64,000 bases of DNA, taken from Eledone cirrhosa (Eukaryota). Below the pieces are notes generated by a model. The model was not told where the DNA came from, searched no databases, and worked only from the letters and a program-made list of their open reading frames with translations. Both the position numbers and the translations under genes were made by a program. How positions within the stretch are numbered: the stretch's first letter is position 1; every line of letters starts with the position of its first letter. Below, one piece after another: positions 9,867-61,052 of this stretch. Location: contig OZ024745.1 of NCBI GenBank assembly GCA_964016885.1, positions 17,174,001 to 17,238,000 on the forward strand, read 5' to 3'.

Positions 9867-11599
9867 TATTTCGTCTTAGGGAGAAGTGTTTGGACGGGGT
9901 CCGTATTTGTTAATAAAGTAAGATTCCTTGCTGATGCGCTGGGTGTGGGTGGCATTATCTTTAAATTTGTAGGGGGGAAAGATTCTGAAGTTGGGATGAT
10001 TTTGGGTGGCACAGGTATCAATGTGTTCACTCAGTGGTATTTTCCTGTATTCCCATATTTTAATTTGGGATCTATGGACAGTCATGCGTTGGCGGAGGCT
10101 GTATTTGGTCTGGCCTATGTATTGTTCTCGACAACCTGAGCAAGTTAATACATATATTAGATTTTCCGATGCACATGTGAAATTGTGTTTTACTATAAAA
10201 CGTTGTCCTTCTTTGAAATAGAATTCCGAACCCTCTATTAGGTTGATGCAAATGCCACAGTTGGGTCTATCGTATTTTTTACTGTGGGTTTTGTTGTTGT
10301 GGTTGGTGGTACTTTGGCATGTGTAAGGACGTTTTTCATTGACTTAGATTGTCTTTTGCTCTTTATGATATCGTGTGTGCGTAGGATTTGGTTCATTCTA
10401 TGGTCCTTTTTCAACACAGGGATGTTCTGGAGGATGGTGTCAAAGGCCTCATTGTTGAGGGGGTTGTGTGTGGAGATGTATGGAATAGCTTTTAGTTTCG
10501 GTTGATTTACTTTAGGGTGTCTAACGTCCTGGGTACTGAGTTTTAGGGCACGTTGGATTCCATTGTCAATTAGTGATGCAGGGTAGTCTCTGCCTATGAG
10601 TGTGTCCTTTAGTTCTTGTAGCCGTAAGTAGCAGGTGTTTTTATTGGAGGCTATAGTACAGATTCTCTTGGCTAAGTTGTAGGGAATATTAATTTTAACG
10701 TGTCTAGGGTGGCAAGAGTTGAAAGGAAGATATTGCTTGGAGTCTGTGGGCTTGTAGTATATGTCTGTTTCTATTTTTTGTTATGGATCTTAATGAGGAT
10801 GTCGAGGAAGGGGAGTTGTTGATGGCTGTATTCCATCGTGAAGTTAATATTCGTGTTGAGCCCAATTATAAGGGTGTGAAATTCTTTAAGTTTTTCCATG
10901 TGTTCCTGCCAAAGGATGAAGCAGTCATCTAGATATCGCTTCCAGTTCCTTCCTATGTGTAAGTGGAGAGTGTTTCCAAATTTGTTTAGGACTTTAGTGT
11001 AGAGGGTGATTTCCAGGTATCCCATGACTAGGTTGGCATAAGTGGGAGCTGTTTTCGTTCCCATAGCGGTCCCAGATTTCTGCCTGTAGGGTTTGTTATT
11101 GAAAACGAAGTAATTGTTCTCCAAGATAAATTTAAGTCCCTCTATCACGAATTCTTTTTTGATGCGTTGTGGGAGTTCATTGTGGTAATTATCCAGCCAG
11201 AATTGGATAGCTTCTATTCCTAGTTTGTGGGGGATGTTGGAGTATAGGTTGACTACATCGAACGTCACTAGTAGGGTTTGTTCAGAAAGTGGCATATTAG
11301 GGAGGTGATTGAGCATATCAATTTTTGCAAGACGAATTGGCGCAAAAAACCAATTTCAATAGCGCTGGAACCACTTTTTTAACATAAAAACAGGTAGAAT
11401 TCCCAAAACTAATCAGATCATAGCAAACATCACGGACGCTCTATCTCAAAATTATTTTTGAAAAGCATTTAGAAATGCGCAACCGGTAAAACTTAAAACC
11501 AAACCTGATTAATAACCAATACAATTACTAATTCTCATTTATTCCTAATTAAACTATCTTTCACTGTGAACAATTTGTCAGCATTTTCTATTCCGTTTA

Positions 11600-25351: not shown

Positions 25352-25520
25352 CGAAGGAAATGTGGTAAGGAACCAGGTGGACCATAACGCACCAAAGTAC
25401 TCAATACTTAGGGTAGTAGAGTGGGTAATAGGAACAAGTAAGACCCCGTCGGCTGAGCTCAAGCCGTTTCGACGGCTAATTCTGGACGGAATGAGCTCAG
25501 CCGTCGGGGTCTTACTTGTT

Positions 25521-25584
<64 letters not shown>

Positions 25585-25753
25585 AACAAGTAAGACCCCG
25601 ACGGCTGAGCTCATTCCGTCCAGAATTAGCCGTCGAAACGGCTTGAGCTCAGCCGACGGGGTCTTACTTGTTCCTATTACCCACTCTACTACCCTAAGTA
25701 TTGAGTACTTTGGTGCGTTATGGTCCAACCGGCTCCTTACCACATTTCCTTCG

Positions 25754-29013: not shown

Positions 29014-29061
<48 letters not shown>

Positions 29062-29065
<4 letters not shown>

Positions 29066-29485
29066 GGAATAGAATGAAACGAAATTTCATTTCTCACTCT
29101 TAGTACGGCAATTACCTAAATGTAAGTATGTATGTATGTATACGTACATACATATATGTATACAGACGTATAGTAGTATGTATATATATACATACATGCA
29201 CACATATATATATGCACATATCGGTTTACCGAACATTTATTATAATGCTCGGTTTGTTTGTTTGTAAACAGCCCGAATTACGCCGTACAGTGTTTATGCA
29301 ACCACGTCACCTTTTTGTTCAAAACTGACACAGGAACGATGTACTAGTTTCAAGCTTATTAGCTATCGTCAGTATCGTATACCTTCCTGTCAGATGGTTG
29401 AACGTCTGAAAGTATATACTTTCCTTATGCACATTAACGGCTGAGCAGCCTAATTTGCTTATCGAGTGATTTTAGTCGGCCGTGC
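29062..29485 (-). mobile_element. ORF-less HHR-bearing ~430-bp repeat (retrozyme-like), copy 1
   Basis: Homologous to 53095-53580 in permuted order; HHR at 29337-29377. Confidence 0.75.
29337..29377 (-). ncRNA. Minimal hammerhead ribozyme
   Basis: cgata CTGACGA tagct aata agctt GAAA ctag TA catcg. Confidence 0.75.
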
Positions 29486-29526: not shown

Positions 29527-32113
29527 TAGAAGTGGTTACACAACAGTTAGTTCACCATACCGAGAACAATTGTTTCACCTTAGCGGATCCTCAGCTCGTA
29601 ATGGGCATCCTTATAGGAACAGGAAGGACAACCCTACGAAACCGCATGCGCAGAAATCCGGTCACTTCACACAGGCAATACTAGAATGCGTGCGAGAGGT
29701 GTAAGGGAGATAACTGCGAAAGTCCGGAAAGTTTTTAGTTGAAAATAAAATTATAAGGAATCAGTCCAGAGCCTTGTAGTTATGCAATAGGTGTTTAGCG
29801 ACGTGTGGACAACGTGTAAAAAATTCATTTCCCGAGTTTAGGCAATCGCTATTGCGTAATCTCTTTAGAATAGTTATTCGTTCGTCAATACATAAGCCAC
29901 ACGTCGGATTTTCCCTTGTGTATTGCTTGGACTTAGTGATGTCTTTCCATTGAATGGAGTAGTCTATACTTGAGTCCTTGAGGGACCATACGTGGCTCGC
30001 GAGTTTCGTGGATGAACGTATGTCCGGGTACCTGAAGGTAGACTGGTGGTTCAGGAAATGTTCCTTAAATCGGGCCTCCGTCATGCCCACATAGGATTTG
30101 ACCTCCTGTGGTTCGTTTGGTCGGTTGGAAGTAACCACAGCTTCATAAATTACAGCTGATGTGCTGCATTGCTGTTGAAGGGGGCAAGCTTCGGGCTTAC
30201 AACAAGAGCACCCTGGTGGGTTGGTGCTCCTAGGGCTGCTGGTGATGTGGGCCTTCATGTTCTTAGCGCAGGAGTATCCTAGTTTAACTTTGTGTCGTTT
30301 AAAGATGGAGCGGTATTTATGACCTATAGGAAAGTGTCTATTTAAGAGGGCTAGACATTTTTTTCCTACATTGGTTTTAACGTTGAGTGAAAAGGGAGGA
30401 GAGAACCAGATAGTTTGTCTATTGTTGCGCTTACTTTTATTAATTGTTGCTAGTGGGAGAGTAAGGGATAGGTTGTGAGAAGCCGCTGTTAGCGAACGCC
30501 GTGTTATAGTAGGGTGCCGCCCTGTCAAAGATAGCCTCATTAGAGGAGAGGTTTGAGATTCTAGTACTGATATTCTTATCGAAGTTTCTAAAAACGGTGG
30601 GAGGGTGGCATGAGTCCTTGTGAATGTAATTTAGTTTCTCGTTTAGCTTATGGAAGGGTCTGTGGGTGTGTGTGCGAAGGTCTAAATTAATGTTTAAGAA
30701 ATCTACGCTAGAGAGGTTGGTGGCTACTGTTATCCTAAGTCGTAACTCATTGAAGGTAGAAGCTAAGTCTTTTTTAAAACAGTCGAGGTCGTGGCCACTA
30801 TTATGGCTTGATAAAGTCATTCCATCGTCGCGGTATATTCCCGTGTGGAAGTCCGGGAATCTACCACGTAATATGTCTAAGATAAATAGGCCAACCAAAT
30901 CACATACGTCAGCACTGTCAAACGATCCCATGGAGACATCGAATAGGTCTGAAGTTGTAGAGTTCTTTGCCCAGGCTACTCCGTCGTTGAAGAGGAGGGT
31001 TTTCCGGCAGTGAGCGATGATTTCGCTCTCTAAACCGTCGACGGTGGTATAAGTGGTAGCGAAGTCCAACGCTTTGTTTAACAGGGTCTCTGAGATCGAC
31101 GGGTAAAAATCGACAATATCAAACTGTGTAAACTTCGCTTTTTTGGAGTTTAAGGAGTTAAACCACTTAATTACAGAGTCGCTGTTCTCCCACTGGGGCA
31201 CGTTGGACTTCGTCCTAATGGTCTTAACTATGTTTCTAAGCATGGCCTTACTGACTAGTCCCATATCTGTGCGTGCCGGGTTTAATAGTCTACATGTGGG
31301 GTTAGAAGTAAAGTCTACCTTGTGATCTTTCAGGGTGAGGAACGCCTCCCGCTTAGCTAGAGATTGTAGCTCCTTTAAGGTCGGCGGCAAGTTCCTTAGC
31401 TTCTGTATTAATGTCGTGGTAGGCCATAGGGTTAGCTTTCTTATATTTAGAAGTAAAGCGTTATAGGCCAGGTGGCGGAAAGTGGTGTTGTCGACTTCGT
31501 AAATATTATTAGTTTTGTCGGATAGAACGAAGGTGTTATTAGTAGACCTAAATTTCTTAATATCATTTCTGAGTTTCGTTTGAAAGGTGTTAGTGTGTTT
31601 GCGAAAGGAAATGTTAGCGACTAAGTCAAGAAGGTCCGTCTCGAAAGGAGCAAGTTCAGTTACCTTAGGAGGGTAGGCTCTCGATTTCAGGTTGAAGGTG
31701 GTGTTGGTGCCTGTAATGTTGCCGTCAAAAGCTAGCGCTTGCCATCTTAAGCGTCTGACGACATCTTCAGCTTTTTGTAGGAGGAGCTTTTGGTTAATAT
31801 GGTTGGAGGGAGTTGGAATGTTCTTCAGGGAGTAATCCAGTTCTTATAAATTCGTACTGACGTTGATGAGACGCAAAATTGTGTAGGACACGAGGATATA
31901 GAGAGCGCTCTCAGGGTAGTAAGCAAAACTCGCACGTGGTGAAGAATCTGCTAAAAGACAAACTTCTATCTAGTGAAGAGAATCTGCTAACCGGTGCTGG
32001 AGACGTATATAGTGGTGGAACACTGGAAGGTAATATCCGTAGTGGTAGAGCACTCAGTCCATAGGACGAGTTAGGTAGAAGAGGTTACACAACAGTTAGT
32101 TCACCATACCGAG

Positions 32114-32117
<4 letters not shown>
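29527..32117 (-). mobile_element. Near full-length Penelope-like element (RT + C-terminal GIY-YIG; probably Hydra-type), frameshifted, with a ~40-bp terminal direct repeat
   Basis: N-terminus YSLKNIP..RRLRWQA, SDKT; LKDHK..NPTCRLLNP, FDIVDFYPSI, MGSFDSADVCDLVG, GIYRDDG; CSC..CPL..C, VIYEA..YVGMT..FKE. 29528-29568 is repeated at 32077-32117. Confidence 0.92.
29561..29598 (-). ncRNA. Minimal hammerhead ribozyme in the 3' pLTR
   Basis: cgag CTGAGGA t cc gctaa gg t GAAA caattg TT ctcg. Perfect 4-bp stem I and a 10-nt palindrome AACAATTGTT. Confidence 0.8.
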
Positions 32118-34206: not shown

Positions 34207-36192
34207 GCAATCTATCCAGAGAGTATAACTTTCGAGATTCCATTGTGCAAAAATATTAAATGTGTTTATTAAAATACTCCTTCCTGTTAGTTCACAACTT
34301 TATAAAATATGATTATTGACATAACTAAGTAATTTACTTCGTGTCATCAAAATGGCGTTGATCTAAAACCATCTGACAATTCGTTGATTTTAGAATATGT
34401 ATCAAGTCAATGTGAAATGTAATTTACAATGGATAATCAATTTTATATTCTGACTTTAATGATGTATTGAATTCTTATATAAAAATCTGCAAGAATGCTA
34501 TTTCTTAGGTGACGACAATATGAGACCAAAACGTCTCCTTGTTTAAATGAGTCTCCCTGTTTGTAATAACATCTCTTAAATAATGTTAAATTATGTTCCT
34601 AGTTAATGAATGTACCATGTGTAATTTAAAAGAAAATGATTAAATATATTAGAGTTTTAGAGTGTGACAGAAGAAAGATACACTATCTTGACAAAGGGCA
34701 ATAACCCAGAAACAATATTATTGTCGATTGTTTCTCTCTGTCACTGCTACGACAAAAGGATTGCTATGGTTATTTAAAACCATGCCTAATGAGGCTGTTC
34801 ATATGCAAAGAAATCGAATATTATTATTATTCGATATAAAACTTACAAATGCGATTATATGTCCAATGTTCGTATCATGACAATAATAATATTAATACGA
34901 TGATAATAATATTAAATGGCCTTCATTTAGCAATAATGGTTGGGGCATAGAGTTGCGTCCCTTAACGTCCGAAGTCCAAATCCCGCCGATAAAATAAAGT
35001 ACCAGCAATTGTTGGTAAGACATTCCCAATTCCCGTTCAATCATCAACATAATATTTGTTATATTGATGAACATTATGATTCAACACATGAACAGCCAAG
35101 AAAGTTCCAATACTAATCAGATCTAATCACATTAATTAACTTTATGTGTGTCTTTTGAAGATTCAAGAGAAATTCAATATGGTAAACTGCCTTTGTTCTT
35201 ATCCCTACAGTAAAAAAGGAAAACGAATCCACTCAGATAAGACAGAATTAAGTATTCTACCCTCATGTCTAGTAATATACTTACTGAATATATATTTTTC
35301 TCCGCATAATTCGTATTTGCGAGTTAATGTCAGTTAACTAATATTTTATCTTTATGGCATATATTAAAGTTAATATATTTTAAAAACAATTATTATTTAT
35401 GATCTTCAAATCAGTAAAATTCTTTGGTTTTAGTATGCTACTTACCTATTTTTAAAGTTCTGTTAAACTTTTCTCGAATAATTTAGTATTCACCAATAAA
35501 AAAATATATTCTAAGCTATGCATTTGCTAACGTGATAATAATACTCTTGGGTAAACTATGTGCATTTTTATAACGATAACGATTTAAATGTCACCGATCT
35601 TTGCCTAAAATTCCATTGCAATTATTTCATGGATAACTAGAGAAAATTTACATTATAACCGCCTATTATTTCTCCATTGATAATAGTGTAATGTTATGTG
35701 CAGTTGTACAGTAAAGCGGTTATATCCCACATGGAGAATGTTTTAATTGATTTTATTGCTTCTTCTTTCTGTACCACACGATAAGAGTATACTCTAGTCA
35801 TTTTATCTTTTCCACCCTCTACCTTCTCTCCCCCTCTCTCTCTACATCTATTTCTATACAGATACACATCGTGCATTTGCATATGTGTGTGTTTGTGTGC
35901 GTGTGTGTGTGTATGTGCGTGTGTGTGTGTGTGTGTTGTTTCCTTTCTTTCAACTAAACACTGTTTAGCCTCGATCTTAATCGACCGGTTACAAGGACCA
36001 CATATGTATGCATGCGTAAGTATGTACGTATAAATGTATGTATATATATTATGTGTGCGCATGTATCTAGCCATGTTCCTACCTACCTATCAATCTAGCT
36101 ATATATATATCCTTATATCTCTATCACTCCCCCCTCTCTCTCTCCCTCTCTCTCTCTCTTTGTATGTATATATATATATATGTATAAATATA

Positions 36193-41959: not shown

Positions 41960-42473
41960 TATATAGGGAGAGAGCGAGAGAGAGAAGTTGACCGAAACAA
42001 TGGAAGAGTGAGAGATGGTGGTGTTGTTCAATGAAATTGTAACAGGTCACTTCAAAGAATCGAATACAGCATTACTCTATCTAGCTAAAATTTGGCGACT
42101 GAATATTATGTCATATGTATCATATAACTTGTGTTAGGACAGGATGTGTGTGTAGCGAATATTTCCTGCTAAATTGGAATGGTTTCTAAGTTTTGTGTAT
42201 ATGCGTGTGTGTGTGTATATATGTGTGTGTGTGTGTTTGTGACCTGTGTATATAGGTCACAGACACCCATACACACACACACACACAAATATATATATAT
42301 ATATAGGAAAATATTCAAGACCCCGACGGCAGAGCTCAAGCCGTTTCGACGGCTATTTCTGGAATTACGTACATGTTTGTGTATATTTTCATTATTTAAA
42401 AACTATTTTTAAGTGAACAAGATTTTTTTAAATGTTAAAGTGAACGTTACCCAACGGGTCACGGGTGGTCTAG
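41960..42473 (+). mobile_element. Helitron-like repeat copy with a nested family-A fragment (42305-42370)
   Basis: Homologous to 39080-39280; ends acccaacgggtcacgggtggtCTAGt. Confidence 0.6.
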
Positions 42474-48855: not shown

Positions 48856-49232
<377 letters not shown>

Positions 49233-52836: not shown

Positions 52837-53060
52837 CAACAATTACTACTAATAATAAATATATTTAATAATTAAAAAAACATTTATATATATGCAACAA
52901 TGGTTGCATTTTAATAGGGTACGTCAAAGCTTATTTGTAAAACTGTTATATATTGTATTTTGTCTGATGAAGGCATAACATAATTTAATTTGGTATCCCT
53001 GAAATATGTATAATGAAATAAATATGGTTTTATAAATATAGTTTCCATTTATTAATATCG

Positions 53061-53094
<34 letters not shown>

Positions 53095-53096
<2 letters not shown>

Positions 53097-53625
53097 AATA
53101 TAAGTATATATACGTACATACATATATGTATACAGACGTACAGTAGTATGTATATATATATACATACATGCACACATATATATATATATGTACGTATGGA
53201 TTCACCAAACATTTATTATAATGTTCGGTGTGTTAGAAAACAAACATCCCATATTAAGCCGTTATGTCTAGCAACCATCTTTGCTCGTTTGCTCAACACT
53301 GACAAAGGAACGCTATACTAGTTTCTAGCTTGTTAGCTATCGTCAGCAACGTATACCTTCCTGCCAGCTTGTTGAACGTCCGAAAGTATATACTTTCCTG
53401 ATGCATATTAACGGCTGAGTAGCCCAATTTGCATATCGAGTGGGTTAATCGGCCGGGTGCACCGAAAACGATAAACGGAAAAAATGAAACCAAATTTCAC
53501 ATCCCTCTCTTAGTACGGCTGTTACTTAAATATAAGTATGTATACGTACATACATATATGTATACAGACGTGTACATATATGTATTTTTACTCCAAATAT
53601 TTGTTGAGTGCTTTATATCGGTTAT
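53095..53625 (-). mobile_element. ORF-less HHR-bearing repeat (retrozyme-like), copy 2 with terminal redundancy
   Basis: taagtat..tacgtacatacatatatgtatacagacgt occurs at 53101 and again at 53533, giving a ~432-bp period. Confidence 0.75.
53311..53351 (-). ncRNA. Minimal hammerhead ribozyme, intact core
   Basis: cgttg CTGACGA tagct aaca agcta GAAA ctag TA tagcg. Palindrome ACTAGT, GUA triplet. Confidence 0.82.
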
Positions 53626-53669
53626 AAAAAAATTTGCTTGTTGTATCCCAACAATTTAAATACTACTTT

Positions 53670-53735: not shown

Positions 53736-54162
53736 GGGCGAGTAAAATTCCCGAGATCCATGGACGAGTTCTCTCCAGCGGGCTCTGTCTCTCATTATCG
53801 CTGCCATGTCCTGCGTCTCTAACAGACCAGTGTTTGTCCTTGGGGCATCAACATACGTTAACCTTGGTTTTCCTCTTCCAGTGTGTCCGGGTAGGGGCTC
53901 CCACAGGACCACTGAGTGCAATGTCAACTCTGGATGTCGGTGAGCATGTCCAGCTAACCTCAGTCTCCTCTGTGTCACTTTTGGGCTGACATTTGGGAGG
54001 CTCCCATACAGCTCTGAGATTTTCATCTTCAGTGTATACTGATAAATGTTCAGAATCATCCTCAGCATTCTTGTGTAGCACCCATCCACCATCTGAGTGA
54101 GTTTCTTGGTCAGTGTCCAAGTCTCAGACCCGTACAGCATCACAGATTCCACTGCAGCAATG
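53735..54162 (-). mobile_element. RTE-type LINE 3' fragment in (TA)n
   Basis: AAVESVMLYGSETWTLT..RMLR..RRLRLAGH.HRHPE..VVLWEP..RGKPRLTYVD. Confidence 0.88.
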
Positions 54163-56245: not shown

Positions 56246-56870
56246 ATATATTTGTATATATATATATATATATATGGGAGGAGGTTATAGTTCACTTGAA
56301 GCATTGTGTAATGAGGTATAAACGTTTGAATATGTGTTATAAGGCCAAGACAATGCAGGTATGGACACAGAAAAAAGAATGCAATAGTGAAAGATATTGA
56401 TGTGAATTCGTCTTTCACCTTGAATTTATTTAAATGTCCTTAATTTTCGAGATAATATCTCTTCTTCGGAGGGAAGTAAAGGTCTCAAACCAGCGTCTTT
56501 AAATCTCTAGTCAAGCCATGCTGACCGGAAATAGTATAGAGTATCTGTTCTAACTCTAATATCAAAGAATTAAAATTAGGTGGATAAAGAGTAGTCTCCC
56601 TTTAAGAGGGGTTTGTTTAGGTTTTTTTTTATTTATTTATTTTTTTTTATTTTATATACGTGCCTGTATATGTGTGTGGGAGAATGCATGAAGGTGTAGG
56701 TATGTGGGTGTGTGTGTGTGAGTGTGGGAAGATAGGTCTAATCGTAAAAGTGGGGGGTAGGTGTTATCTGGTGTTAGAACTGGTTTTGTGTGTGTATGTG
56801 TGAGAGAGAATAAGTGGAGGTGTGTGCGTGCGTGTGTGTGGGGTGTGTAAAAATGGGGCTAGAGGCCTTA

Positions 56871-57737
56871 TCAGGTTATAAATTGGGTGTTGAGCTCTAG
56901 TCTATTATTGATTGGTGGATGTGTTCTATCTATAATAAGTGCCTCCTTAATTCTAAGATTGCCGAGGTTTCTTTCCTTAGTTTCTATCCTAACTGTTATG
57001 TTTTTATCGGTGTTTTTGCATTTAACTAGGTGTTTCTTAAATGAGGAAGCGTTAGTATTGAGGTGTTCTTTTATTCTTATGTGGAGTGGTCTGGTGGTGC
57101 TACCTACGTAGAAGTTGTTGCATTTGTCACACTCTAGTCTGTATACTACGTAAGCCTGGTGGCATAGGTCTGTGTCGTTGATGGGGCAGTTGGCTAGTCT
57201 GCAGCAGTTGTCATGTCTGGTGGAGTGTCTCTTAGCCAGCCGTCCGCGCAAAGAAGGACCCGAGTGGGCCAGTTGGATATCCAGTCCCTCTCGTCTGATG
57301 GCTCTGCGGATGGCTGTTGTTGTTTCTTCACTGAAGTGTGGGAGCTTCAGGAAGCAAGTGTTAGTGCCTCGGGTGTGGTGTCCTCTGTTATTTCTGGCAC
57401 GGTTTGTGGTGGATGTCGTGTATCCGTTCAGTTTGAGTACTTCCAGGAAATGTGTGGTGTGTGTGTCTCGGTCTCTGGCGTCGGTGCATTTGTTCCTGAT
57501 ACGTGCCAGTTCGTTCTTTATGTATCCGAACTTGGCACCGAGTGGGAGGGCCGATCTGAAATGTACGAACAGGTCCCTGCTGGCGGATTTTTTATAGAAG
57601 CAGGTGTGGATGTTGCCTTCTTCTGTTACCCTGAGTTGGAAGTCCAGTAGGGATAGGGATCCGCGGTCATCGGGGTGTTCCATGCTGAACTTTATACTGG
57701 CGTCCATGCTGGAGAATGTTGTGTATATTTCCTCTGC
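56871..57737 (-). pseudogene. Inverted duplicate of the RT thumb + complete GIY-YIG domain
   Basis: The 278-aa ORF matches the C-terminus of the 819-aa ORF almost exactly and continues ..LRIKEALII..PPINNRLE. Confidence 0.93.
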
Positions 57738-57756
57738 TGGTTTGAGACCTTTACTT

Positions 57757-57793
57757 CCCTCCGAAGAAGAGATATTATCTCGAAAATTAAGGA
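57757..57793 (+). ncRNA. Variant minimal HHR in the pLTR (identical copies 60906-60942 +, 56437-56473 -)
   Basis: cct CCGAAGA a gagat att atctc GAAA at TA agg; palindrome AATT. Confidence 0.65.
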
Positions 57794-57925
57794 CATTTAA
57801 ATAAATTCAAGGTTAAAGACGAATTCACATCAATATCTTTCACTATTGCATTCTTTTTTCTATGTCCATACCTGCATTGTCTTGGCCTTATTACACATAT
57901 TCAAACGTTTATACCTCATTACACA

Positions 57926-60385
57926 ATGCTTCAAGTGAACTATAACCTCCTCCTTTCATTACGCCTGAGCCAGGCCCAGTTCACAACTGTAAAGAAACTC
58001 TTCCAGCTATCTGAAAAGCGTGCCAAAGCCGGCTGCCAAATAAACTTCCTAAAACGAGGACTGAATAACAACATCATCCCCAAAACCATCAAAAATTTAC
58101 ACCTACCAACATGCTTCAAATCACCAGGCCTCAAACGATCACTCAGTTACATACAAAAATTCTGCCTAAGAAAACTCATACAACACCTACACCGCACGCT
58201 ACAACATCACATACGGACTATCTCCAGCCTTGTACCACAACTCGCTGAAACCCCAGAACGTCTGTCCAGGGTCATCTCCGCCACTATAGACAGGTCATAC
58301 CACCACCGCCGAGACTACGAGAAAATACGCCTAACACAAAAATTTCTCAAACTCAGGACGGCCAACTGTCTTAACAACATCCCAACGCTAAACACCAACA
58401 GAGGCGAACAATACGTTACCAACACCGAACCTAGCGGCACCCCGACCAACAACACACCTGACGCAAAACATCTCGTCACAGACTTGACAGGATCCCTCTC
58501 CCGAGAGGAATTAGACCTCCTCAGCCTGGGTCCCAAGTTCATATTGAAACAGAGATTGGACGACAGACTATGGCTCGACATAGAAACGAATTTCTGTCAG
58601 ACTGCCTACCAACTGAAATGGATATCGACTCTCGACAACAACACCACGGAATCCACCACACCCAGATTCCCGATATACCAATTAGATCGCCCACTCTATC
58701 CACCGCCCGCCAACCGCGAGCTGGAAGAAAAACTCTCGAGACTAAAACATTCCGTATTTAACATCTTACGGAAACAGAAGAAGATGGCCCCTAACCACTC
58801 CAGGACACAACAACTCGCCCTGAAGAACCTACGGAATAAGGAACTTATTTACTTACCATCCGACAAAGGTAAAGAGTTCTGCGTCATCTCTCAAGCCACA
58901 TACAATAACCTAGCCTTCGAACACCTAAGCGACAGTGAATTGTACACAGTGATCCCAGACATGACCGCAGCCCAAATCGAAAAACAGACCAACTCCATTT
59001 GGTTCGATATCTGTAGGAGAAGACAACTCCCGAATAAAATTAAACTCAACTACACCACTAGAAATAGCAGACTGCCCACTTTCTACCACCTCATCAAGAC
59101 CCACAAGAATAGCACTAAGACGCAAATAAGACCCATCGTCTCTAGCATAGAAGGACCCCTATACAACATTTCCTGGCTTCTCTCCCAGGTCCTCAAGCCT
59201 CTACTCTCCACCTTCCCCGGACATGTCAGTAGCTCCGACGAAGTTATACGTAGATTACGCCAACTCCAGCCAGAACAACTTAAACTAAATAAATACGCTT
59301 TTAGCCTCGACGTTGTCTCCCTCTACACTACAGTCCCCGCTCACCCAGCTGTCGATTTATTGACGGACTGCGTGGTCGCAGAGAACATCCACTGCTACGG
59401 CCTCCACCCGACGGACAAAAACCAGATTTTGTCCTTCACAGTAGACAACACGTACTTCACCTTCCACCACCACACATACAGACAGACAACAGGATTACCC
59501 ATGGGATCCAGCCTTTCGGGCCTGCTGGCCATCACTTACATGAACCAGCTAGAATGCCGAGCTCTCAACACCTGCCATTCCCATGCCTTCTTCACCCGAT
59601 ATGTAGATGACATACTCATCCTTACATCATCCCGTGAGGAGGCAGAGAAAATATACACAACATTCTCCAGCATGGACGCCAGTATAAAGTTCAGCATGGA
59701 ACACCCCGATGACCGTGGATCCCTATCCCTACTGGACTTCCAACTCAGGGTAACAGAAGAAGGCAACATCCACACCTGCTTCTATAAAAAATCCGCCAGC
59801 AGGGACCTGTTCGTACATTTCAGATCGGCCCTCCCACTCGGTGCCAAGTTCGGATACATAAAGAACGAATTGGCACGTATCAGGAACAAATGCATCGACG
59901 CCAGAGACCGAGACACACACACCACACATTTCCTGGAAGTACTCAAACTGAACGGATACACGACATCCACCACAAACCGTGCCAGAAATAACAGAGGACA
60001 CCACACCCGAGGCACTAACACTTGCTTCCTGAAGCTCCCACACTTCAGTGAAGAAACAACAACAGCCATCCGCAGAGCCATCAGACGAGAGGGACTGGAT
60101 ATCCAACTGGCCCACTCGGGTCCTTCTTTGCGCGGACGGTTGGCTAAGAGACACTCCACCAGACATGACAACTGCTGCAGACTAGCCAACTGCCCCATCA
60201 ACGACACAGACCTATGCCACCAGGCTTACGTAGTATACAGACTAGAGTGTGACAAATGCAACAACTTCTACGTAGGTAGCACCACCAGACCACTCCACAT
60301 AAGAATAAAAGAACACCTCAATACTAACGCTTCCTCATTTAAGAAACATCTAGTTAAATGCAAAAACACCGATAATAAAACATAA
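57926..60385 (+). CDS. PLE polyprotein: reverse transcriptase + C-terminal GIY-YIG endonuclease (819 aa; last ~40 aa lost to a 2-nt insertion, natural stop about 60510)
   Basis: PSDKG, LIKTHK, RPIVS, SLDVVSLYT, GLPMGSSLS, RYVDD, LLDF, Cys linker, VVYRLECDKCNNFYVGST.RPLHIRIKEH. Confidence 0.95.
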   Translation: MLQVNYNLLLSLRLSQAQFTTVKKLFQLSEKRAKAGCQINFLKRGLNNNIIPKTIKNLHLPTCFKSPGLKRSLSYIQKFCLRKLIQHLHRTLQHHIRTISSLVPQLAETPERLSRVISATIDRSYHHRRDYEKIRLTQKFLKLRTANCLNNIPTLNTNRGEQYVTNTEPSGTPTNNTPDAKHLVTDLTGSLSREELDLLSLGPKFILKQRLDDRLWLDIETNFCQTAYQLKWISTLDNNTTESTTPRFPIYQLDRPLYPPPANRELEEKLSRLKHSVFNILRKQKKMAPNHSRTQQLALKNLRNKELIYLPSDKGKEFCVISQATYNNLAFEHLSDSELYTVIPDMTAAQIEKQTNSIWFDICRRRQLPNKIKLNYTTRNSRLPTFYHLIKTHKNSTKTQIRPIVSSIEGPLYNISWLLSQVLKPLLSTFPGHVSSSDEVIRRLRQLQPEQLKLNKYAFSLDVVSLYTTVPAHPAVDLLTDCVVAENIHCYGLHPTDKNQILSFTVDNTYFTFHHHTYRQTTGLPMGSSLSGLLAITYMNQLECRALNTCHSHAFFTRYVDDILILTSSREEAEKIYTTFSSMDASIKFSMEHPDDRGSLSLLDFQLRVTEEGNIHTCFYKKSASRDLFVHFRSALPLGAKFGYIKNELARIRNKCIDARDRDTHTTHFLEVLKLNGYTTSTTNRARNNRGHHTRGTNTCFLKLPHFSEETTTAIRRAIRREGLDIQLAHSGPSLRGRLAKRHSTRHDNCCRLANCPINDTDLCHQAYVVYRLECDKCNNFYVGSTTRPLHIRIKEHLNTNASSFKKHLVKCKNTDNKT

Positions 60386-61052
60386 CAGTTAGGATAGAAA
60401 CTAAGGAAAGAAACCTCGGCAATCTTAGAATTAAGGAAGCACTTATTATAGATAGAACACATCCACCAATCAATAATAGACTAGAGCTCAACACCCAATT
60501 TATAACCTGATAGGGCCTCTAGCCCCATTTTTACACACCCCACACACACGCACGCACACACATCCACTTATTCTCTCTCACACATACACACACAAAACCA
60601 GTTCTAACACCAGATAACACCTACCCCCCACTTTTACGATTAGACCTATCTTCCCACACTCACACACACACACCCACATACCTACACCTTCATGCATTCT
60701 CCCACACACATATACAGGCACGTATATAAAATAAAATAAAAATAAAAAAAATAAAAACCTAAACAAACCCCTCTTAAAGGGAGACTACTCTTTATCCACC
60801 TAATTTTAATTCTTTGATATTAGAGTTAGAACAGATACTCTATACTATTTCCGGTCAGCATGGCTTGACTAGAGATTTAAAGACGCTGGTTTGAGACCTT
60901 TTCTTCCCTCCGAAGAAGAGATATTATCTCGAAAATTAAGGACATTTAAATAAATTCAAGGTGAAAGACGAATTCACATCAATATCTTTCACTATTGCAT
61001 TCTTTTTTCTATGTCCATACCTGCATTGTCTTGGCCTTATTACACATATTCA

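What the first reader, a model, noticed from the sequence alone, without database searches (positions are those of the whole stretch)
53095..53625. ORF-less ~430-nt permuted unit with a hammerhead: candidate cephalopod retrozyme / circular RNA
Seen: two copies (29062-29485 and 53095-53625) start at different points of the same ~432-bp unit, and the second is terminally redundant. Both keep CTGACGA-stem-GAAA-CTAG-TA while stem I varies mostly within pairing (cgttg/tagcg vs cgata/catcg). No ORF; (TA)-rich flanks. Known: metazoan non-LTR retrozymes are small HHR-bearing units that produce circRNAs. Inference: a non-autonomous element copied from a circular or tandem RNA by a PLE RT.
Basis: partly seen in the sequence, partly recalled or inferred. 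Interest (0 to 1): 0.8.

Follow-up and report, generated by a model that had tools for sequence, protein, structure and literature searches.

The report
Hammerhead retrozyme with Penelope insertion footprints
This is a protein-free, roughly 430-base repeat with a hammerhead-ribozyme motif and tens of thousands of genomic copies, whose ends show the footprints of Penelope-like retrotransposons, so it likely borrows their enzyme and may be copied from a circular RNA that was not observed here.

Summary
The two copies are real (82.6% alike over 362 nt) and carry a type I hammerhead on the minus strand. The family is large: 12,963 exact core matches in the 3.0-Gb genome, about 37,000 insertions, four subfamilies. 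Its RNA fold is conserved between subfamilies (8 compensatory, 8 one-sided, 1 broken pair). No ORF.

The unit is not freely permuted. In ribozyme sense the 3' ends are fixed at two sites 56 nt apart (A, B), usually joined to (AT)n; only the 5' ends vary. Head-to-head inverted pairs are common, and 49 of 51 typed pairs join one A end with one B end. This is the 'tail at one end' signature of Penelope-like elements (PLEs), shown in vitro to come from two internal RT start sites; ORF-bearing PLEs here obey the same rule. Copy 2 ends near 53581, not 53625.

Verdict: a new member of the non-LTR retrozymes, with direct insertion-site evidence for PLE mobilisation. Cleavage, transcription and circles are untested; long arrays look locally amplified and do not prove a circle. 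The partner PLE was not found; 'cephalopod' was not tested.

The parts
53095..53571 (-). Copy 2: one 432-nt unit plus 45 nt of redundancy; 3' end at site B (53095), 5' end truncated in the TA-rich arm
53291..53377 (-). Type I hammerhead of copy 2 with extended stem I; core starts at 53346; predicted cut after GUA between 53316 and 53315
   Evidence: cut site inferred from the canonical core
53471..53526 (-). 56-nt tail between sites B and A, here internal (read through); site A corresponds to 53471
53064..53094 (.). (AT)n run at the 3' junction of copy 2
53572..53581 (.). 10-nt TA-rich junction at the 5' end of copy 2; a 4-bp duplication (53060-53063 and 53582-53585) is possible
   Evidence: read from sequence; uncertain in AT-rich context
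52900..53063 (+). Host repeat, left part: another hammerhead-like motif (52964) ending at its own short end; not part of the unit
53582..53669 (+).
29060..29485 (-). Copy 1 (second subfamily): 426 nt, 3' end at site A (29060) followed by (AT)n, 5' truncated
29317..29403 (-). Hammerhead of copy 1; core starts at 29372; A.C mismatch at the innermost stem I pair
29060..29121 (-). Terminal tail of copy 1 (B to A)

Best explanation
It is an ORF-less, high-copy hammerhead repeat with two fixed 3' ends and variable 5' ends, likely a non-autonomous Penelope-like element (non-LTR retrozyme) whose RNA is likely reverse-transcribed into (AT)n DNA by a borrowed PLE protein. Steps: (1) inferred: tandem copies are transcribed in ribozyme sense. 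(2) predicted: two successive hammerheads cut out a 425-445-nt monomer whose ends are held together by the ~22-bp stem I and are ligated to a circle; palindromic stem III suggests dimeric activation. (3) inferred from ends: a PLE RT/GIY-YIG protein nicks AT-rich DNA and starts cDNA internally at site A or site B, about 270 and 212 nt after the cut site. (4) shown: copies usually run through the cut site and often exceed one unit, so the template is a circle or an uncut multimer; synthesis stops at variable points. (5) inferred: when both target strands are used, one is primed at A and the other at B, and the two cDNAs are joined head to head by short overlaps. (6) shown for some loci: later DNA-level duplication builds long arrays. 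Odds: PLE-mobilised non-autonomous element 0.85; self-cleavage active 0.75; circle as main template 0.55; twin priming 0.65.
For: Copy number: 12,963 exact core matches, 23,929 exact matches across the cut site, 5 of 40 evenly placed 10-kb stretches, estimate 37,000 insertions, 95% range 12,000-87,000. Fixed 3' ends: in 60 position-ordered loci 84 of 112 arms end at A (45) or B (39); one variant of site A is followed by (AT)n 3,096 times and reads on 3,320 times. Variable 5' ends over the whole unit (243 arms). Pairs: 88 head-to-head pairs, 51 typed at both ends: 49 A+B, 2 A+A, 0 B+B (p about 1e-12 against 0.5; ordered set alone 22 of 22 after removing a duplicate). Same rule in five other PLE-type repeats of this genome: 17 tail/no-tail among 23 listed pairs, and at the outer ends of the ORF-bearing PLE pair in this window. 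[quoted passage not shown] RNA structure under selection: 97.6% of cells paired, stem I pair UG/AU/GU; 8 compensatory, 8 one-sided, 1 broken among 77 pairs over four subfamilies; 14 natural monomers fold as circles with z -4 to -13, GC 0.36-0.38. No ORF. Recent activity: copies at different loci down to 0.3% apart.
Against: No RNA data: cleavage, transcription and circles are unobserved. No autonomous PLE with this unit as pLTR in 50 GIY-YIG loci or 1.47 Mb of held sequence. Rfam hammerhead models do not hit. Stem II opens with U.U or C.A and not the canonical G-C, and 8 of 9 predicted Xenopus retrozymes did not cleave in vitro (bioRxiv 2026). In the anole PLE, hammerhead mutants did not impair insertion and uncut RNA was the main substrate. 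Long arrays show dimer and tetramer higher-order periods typical of local duplication, so they are no evidence for rolling-circle copying. 37 of 88 pairs could not be typed at both ends; 37 of 49 A+B pairs are also compatible with fold-back of one cDNA. Catalytic columns show no fewer private changes than the rest (1.7% vs 1.9%), as expected of dead copies but giving no extra support. The tail (56 nt) is longer than the 30-40 bp quoted for PLEs.
Confidence: 0.85

Rival explanations
1. Same element and same PLE enzyme, but the template is a linear, uncut read-through transcript of tandem copies; circles are absent or a side product.
For: Arrays of 10 and 43 units exist as possible sources. In the anole PLE uncut RNA is the main substrate in vitro. 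No DNA feature examined needs a circle; the ABAB array L202 is explained by local duplication and has no close copy elsewhere; the private variants of the 7-unit array L183 occur only there.
Against: Pairing of stem I across the cut site is kept through subfamily changes. Most insertions hold 0-1 hammerhead (96 of 110 arms), so linear copying alone would shorten the family each round. Related mussel, coral and axolotl units make abundant circles (PMC7229834).
Confidence: 0.35
2. Inverted pairs arise from one cDNA that folds back and copies itself, the copy being joined to the target at the other site; no second priming on RNA.
For: Arms are closer to each other than to most other loci (50 pairs). 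Several junctions sit on self-complementary hairpins with 16-17-nt overlap. 37 of 49 pairs fit by length.
Against: In 12 of 49 pairs neither arm can be a copy of the other. B ends also occur alone (10 of 34 solo arms in the ordered set). In vitro a PLE extends both target strands from two RNA start sites.
Confidence: 0.25
3. The unit is only the pseudo-LTR of a longer ORF-bearing PLE, and the copies are its 5'-truncated ends.
For: All end features are those of PLE pLTRs. Copy 1 lies directly 3' of a PLE ORF in the same orientation, as does the copy in L102.
Against: Those PLEs have their own, different hammerheads and ends. Upstream of the hammerhead the sequence returns to the same unit, not to an ORF. 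Among 81 solo arms none has a same-strand PLE ORF match in the upstream 1.2 kb, and the 6 shared upstream matches are scattered pairs, not one fixed junction.
Confidence: 0.06
4. A dispersed minisatellite or MITE-like repeat spread at DNA level, with a vestigial ribozyme motif.
For: Some arrays grew by local duplication; inverted pairs mimic terminal inverted repeats.
Against: Fixed 3' and ragged 5' ends, unequal arm ends, and G.U-tolerant compensatory changes on one strand point to an RNA intermediate.
Confidence: 0.03

Closest known systems
Metazoan non-LTR retrozymes (Cervera and de la Pena 2020, PMC7229834; mussel, coral, axolotl)
   Same: Small low-GC repeat, type I hammerhead with short stem III, dimers to multimers, no ORF, highly self-paired; U.U at the base of stem II as in axolotl HHR_Amex2.
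   Different: Unit slightly longer (424-446, one subfamily 456-538 nt) than the 170-400 nt quoted; mostly dispersed 1-1.5-unit insertions; two fixed 3' ends and inverted pairs are not mentioned in the passages read ('inverted' 0 occurrences); cleavage and circles not shown here.
EN+ Penelope-like elements, pLTR/tail architecture (Craig 2021 PMC8557442; Frangieh 2024 PMC11167929)
   Same: Partial tandem, inverted 5'-truncated partner, tail at one end only, (TA)n targets, hammerhead upstream of the ends.
   Different: No RT/GIY-YIG ORF; tail 56 nt; no homologous autonomous pLTR found.
Vertebrate retrozymes as PLE pLTR derivatives (Li, Clavereau, Pollet, bioRxiv 10.64898/2026.07.22.740005)
   Same: Same conclusion: retrozymes are non-autonomous PLE sequences.
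   Different: Their evidence is co-occurrence and pLTR homology in vertebrates; here it is insertion-end anatomy in an invertebrate-type genome, without pLTR homology.
Non-autonomous Chlamys elements such as MRC1 (PMC8557442)
   Same: ORF-less PLE dependants with pLTR-like redundancy and head-to-tail copies.
   Different: Most Chlamys lack canonical hammerheads, and their non-autonomous forms resemble a known partner at the 3' end.

Membership tests
Non-LTR retrozyme | Type I hammerhead in each unit | tested here: met
   Core and stems in both copies; covariation; no Rfam hit
Non-LTR retrozyme | Small unit in dimers to multimers, many genomic copies | tested here: met
   424-446 nt monomers, arrays to 43 units, 12,963 core matches
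Non-LTR retrozyme | Low GC, highly self-paired RNA | tested here: met
   GC 0.36-0.38, 63-70% paired, z -4 to -13; window unit z -5.1
Non-LTR retrozyme | No protein-coding capacity | tested here: met
   Longest ATG frame 76 aa in three natural arrays
Non-LTR retrozyme | Self-cleavage of the transcript | not testable with these tools
   Needs in vitro transcription
Non-LTR retrozyme | Accumulates as linear and circular RNA | not testable with these tools
   No RNA run was available to lay
Non-LTR retrozyme | Target duplications, when present, longer than 4 bp | tested here: inconclusive
   One site with an empty counterpart: possible 4 bp; (AT)n hides the rest
EN+ PLE insertion class (non-autonomous member) | Tail between two fixed 3' ends, present at one end of an insertion | tested here: met
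   49 of 51 typed pairs A+B
EN+ PLE insertion class (non-autonomous member) | 5' truncation, partial tandems, inverted 5' partner | tested here: met
EN+ PLE insertion class (non-autonomous member) | AT-rich or (TA)n targets, including own-type pLTRs | tested here: met
   copy 2 sits at the short end of another such repeat
EN+ PLE insertion class (non-autonomous member) | Sequence homology to the pLTR of an autonomous partner | tested here: inconclusive
   None found in 50 GIY-YIG loci and 1.47 Mb; this is 0.05% of the genome
Autonomous PLE | RT plus GIY-YIG ORF | tested here: not met
Plant LTR retrozyme | Type III hammerhead in LTRs around an internal region | tested here: not met
   Type I topology, unit repeats without internal region; PBS/PPT not searched
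Viroid-like replicon | Ribozymes in both polarities, rod-like fold | tested here: not met
   Hammerhead on one strand only, branched fold, no Rfam ribozyme on either strand

The most novel reading that the evidence does not exclude
A dimeric Penelope-like protein loads on one circular retrozyme RNA and primes the two cut target strands once each, at two fixed sites 56 nt apart, so that every inverted PLE insertion is a twin-TPRT product of a rolling circle; this 37,000-copy family, still active, would be the natural substrate to show it, and the first retrozyme with a PLE insertion footprint in its (probably cephalopod) genome.
Probability: 0.35. Interest if true: 0.75.

Novelty: new member of a known kind. 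Interest (0 to 1): 0.52.

Why it matters
Which enzyme moves animal retrozymes was left as a hypothesis in 2020 (PLEs 'a strong candidate') and argued from homology in a 2026 preprint. Here the insertions themselves carry the PLE tail signature, which no other retroelement is known to leave. The strict A+B pairing also constrains the unresolved later steps of PLE integration: both RT start sites are used once per inverted insertion. A short, abundant, recently active, structured substrate makes the circle-versus-multimer question directly testable. A specialist would find it satisfying more than surprising.

Tried and rejected
RNA evidence: no RNA holder listed; the three listed runs are contigs of one sample that also cover the flanks and give nothing on expression. 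Rfam: no ribozyme match; the miRNA hits are microsatellite artefacts. Partner PLE: GIY-YIG search and 50 loci, upstream flanks of 81 solo arms, profile scan of 264 held sequences and the 3' end of one more PLE family gave none; a weak pyrimidine-rich likeness to the short end of one Neptune-like family was rejected as low complexity. A 64-nt query at site A gave no candidates, and the tool skips very common words, so it shows nothing. Dimeric-circle reading of L202 rejected as local duplication; L183 as rolling-circle product not supported. Run-off at the cut site: none overall (13 of 243 arms within 12 nt, about 14 expected, but most arms were picked for holding the core); 6 of 33 core-less arms stop within -10..+5 (p 0.017, window chosen after looking), a weak hint only. 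Taxon: atlas and homolog search of the window's PLE protein named no organism. Metagenome scan: 0 matches. Earlier findings: none in three look-ups. Literature searches without a cephalopod retrozyme or an A+B pairing count; Repbase, Dfam and paper supplements were not seen and may hold this family.

Full report
Observation. The two stretches are homologous: 82.6% over 362 nt (E 3.6e-99), with a second 124-nt match that shows the shifted start. Both carry a type I hammerhead on the minus strand, core at 53346 and 29372: five-pair inner stem I, CUGACGA, a four-pair stem II opened by a mismatch, GAAA, a two-pair palindromic stem III and a GUA triplet. Stem I extends to about 22 pairs. Copy 2 has a 432-nt period and 45 nt of redundancy. 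It ends at about 53581; what follows is the tail of another hammerhead-bearing repeat, whose uninterrupted form is in L023, L182 and L228 and which resumes at 53582 in public contigs. Copy 1 spans 29060-29485. Rfam finds no hammerhead here.

Family. The window lies in a 3.0-Gb genome. A 31-place core pattern matches 12,963 times, a pattern across the cut site 23,929 times, controls 0. Five of 40 evenly placed 10-kb stretches hold the element, giving about 37,000 insertions (12,000-87,000); short copies made only of the TA-rich part escape this count (one seen). Searches with three queries and a later pattern gave four subfamilies, about 80-85% alike for the three compared by blastn. Copies depart 2-3% from their cluster, and the closest copies at different loci differ by 0.3%. 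Fourteen natural monomers are 424-446 nt, GC 0.36-0.38, and fold as circles with z -4 to -13 (15 shuffles each). Three arrays have no ATG frame over 76 aa.

RNA structure. On 51 hammerheads from loci not picked by the core pattern, 97.6% of cells pair; the middle stem I pair switches among UG, AU and GU. Over 31 copies of four subfamilies, 17 of 77 predicted pairs differ between subfamilies: 8 compensatory, 8 one-sided and kept, 1 broken (the structure was predicted from the same alignment, which favours such counts). They include a long-range helix between the tail and the region just after the ribozyme, and a helix that spans site A. Subfamily changes at the core fall on the tolerant positions N7 and H17. 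Private changes are as frequent in the core as elsewhere (1.7% vs 1.9%), as expected of copies that decay after insertion.

Ends. In ribozyme sense the 3' ends fall at two sites, B about 212 and A about 270 nt after the predicted cut, mostly followed by (AT)n. To avoid best-hit bias I took the first 60 clusters of core matches along contig C1: 84 of 112 arms end at A or B. One length variant of site A is followed by (AT)n 3,096 times and reads on into the next unit 3,320 times. The 5' ends spread over the whole unit (243 arms).

Inverted pairs. Many insertions are two arms joined head to head with 3' ends outward: 37 pairs in the 60 ordered loci, 88 in all 205 loci scanned. Of 51 typed at both ends, 49 are A+B, 2 are A+A, none B+B; 37 pairs had an arm that could not be typed. 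Junctions mostly have a few bases of overlap or gap, and several sit on a self-complementary hairpin. Arms are closer to each other than to most other loci, with two clear exceptions. In 12 of 49 pairs neither arm can be a fold-back copy of the other. Five other PLE-type repeats in the genome show the same rule: 17 tail/no-tail, 5 no-tail/no-tail and 1 tail/tail, the last being an internal pLTR. The ORF-bearing PLE pair in this window (56340-61040) has the tail on one outer end only.

Meaning. Craig et al. describe exactly this for PLEs: partial tandems, an inverted 5'-truncated copy and a 30-40-bp tail often at one end only (PMC8557442, passages). Frangieh et al. showed with purified anole PLE protein that both strands of AT-rich DNA are cut and extended, that RT starts at two internal RNA sites, and that the tail is the stretch between them (PMC11167929, parts 1-2 of 4). 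I therefore read A and B as RT start sites and the element as a passenger of a PLE protein. The near-absence of A+A and B+B pairs implies that an inverted insertion uses each site once, most simply by twin priming; this is inference. Since tens of thousands of copies run intact through the cut site, the usual template is a circle or an uncut multimer.

Circle or multimer. DNA cannot settle this. Arrays of 10 and 43 units show dimer and tetramer periods, and L202 is a local duplication; the variants shared along the 7-unit array L183 occur nowhere else. For a circle: the conserved helix that clamps the two ends of a cut monomer, the known circles of mussel, coral and axolotl retrozymes (PMC7229834, section 14 and passages), and the model of Cervera and de la Pena 2014 (PMC4209133, passages). 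Against: hammerhead cleavage was dispensable for the anole PLE in vitro, and 8 of 9 Xenopus candidates did not cleave (bioRxiv 10.64898/2026.07.22.740005, parts 1-3 of 5). Six of 33 core-less arms stop near the cut site, a weak post hoc hint of cut templates. I put the circle at 0.55.

Partner. The genome is rich in RT/GIY-YIG PLEs (150 of 10,596 candidates scored; intact ORFs of 938 and 1096 aa). None of 50 loci has this unit as pLTR; where a copy follows a PLE ORF, as copy 1 does, the PLE has its own hammerhead and end. None of 81 solo arms has a same-strand PLE ORF match upstream. A profile scan found two more distant ORF-less sibling repeats (best E 4.7e-24 and 6e-4) but no coding relative. 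Only 0.05% of the genome was examined for this.

Verdict. A new member of the non-LTR retrozymes and, mechanistically, a non-autonomous PLE. Seven literature searches showed no cephalopod retrozyme and no count of A+B pairing, but supplements, Repbase and Dfam were not seen. The added value is the insertion-site proof of the PLE link and the pairing rule. Interest 0.52.

Noticed in passing
window 56340-61040: ORF-bearing PLE as a head-to-head pair: + arm with an 864-aa frame (57791-60385; 817 aa from ATG, frameshift near the C-terminus) and a truncated - arm; tail on one outer end only; the start codon lies inside the tail.
   Followed up: partly
window 29527-32117: A second PLE (two frames, 29761-31843, minus strand) with its own hammerhead-like motif at 29594, directly 5' of copy 1; clade not determined.
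   Followed up: partly
window 9876-11355: Broken RT/GIY-YIG PLE fragments on the minus strand with a CxxC linker.
   Followed up: no
window 52900-53669: Host of copy 2: another abundant hammerhead-like repeat with two ends about 85 nt apart and tail/no-tail inverted pairs; whether it has an ORF-bearing form is unknown.
   Followed up: partly
L141:7535-7869, L119:2163-2495, L133, L220: A distant sibling family homologous along the whole unit (E 4.7e-24) with its own hammerhead; by eye it also forms head-to-head pairs with a tail on one arm. Not counted.
   Followed up: partly
L171:471-724, L032:18-199, L100, L103, window 34663-34827: A still more distant hammerhead repeat with weak similarity upstream of the ribozyme (E 2e-4 to 7e-4); no ORF seen beside it.
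   Followed up: partly
L244-L246 (C1, 49.58 and 51.77-51.79 Mb): Satellite-like arrays of the unit: 10 units with a dimer period and 43 units with a partial tetramer period, i.e. a retrozyme turning into a higher-order satellite.
   Followed up: partly
L252, L253, L255, L256: Youngest-looking subfamily, 456-538 nt through a longer TA-rich arm; three successive units in L253 are identical.
   Followed up: partly
L044: One array switches subfamily in mid-unit, suggesting a template switch or recombination.
   Followed up: no
window 25428-25677: Near-perfect palindrome around (TA)n, with related pieces at 42289-42367 and in several loci; MITE-like or another head-to-head family.
   Followed up: no
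window 40869 (+) and 8354 (-): Two further hammerhead-core matches from the relaxed scan.
   Followed up: no
window 53740-54160: 3' end of a LINE-type RT frame next to copy 2, with a near copy at 48856-49067; the RTE-like label is recalled, not tested.
   Followed up: no
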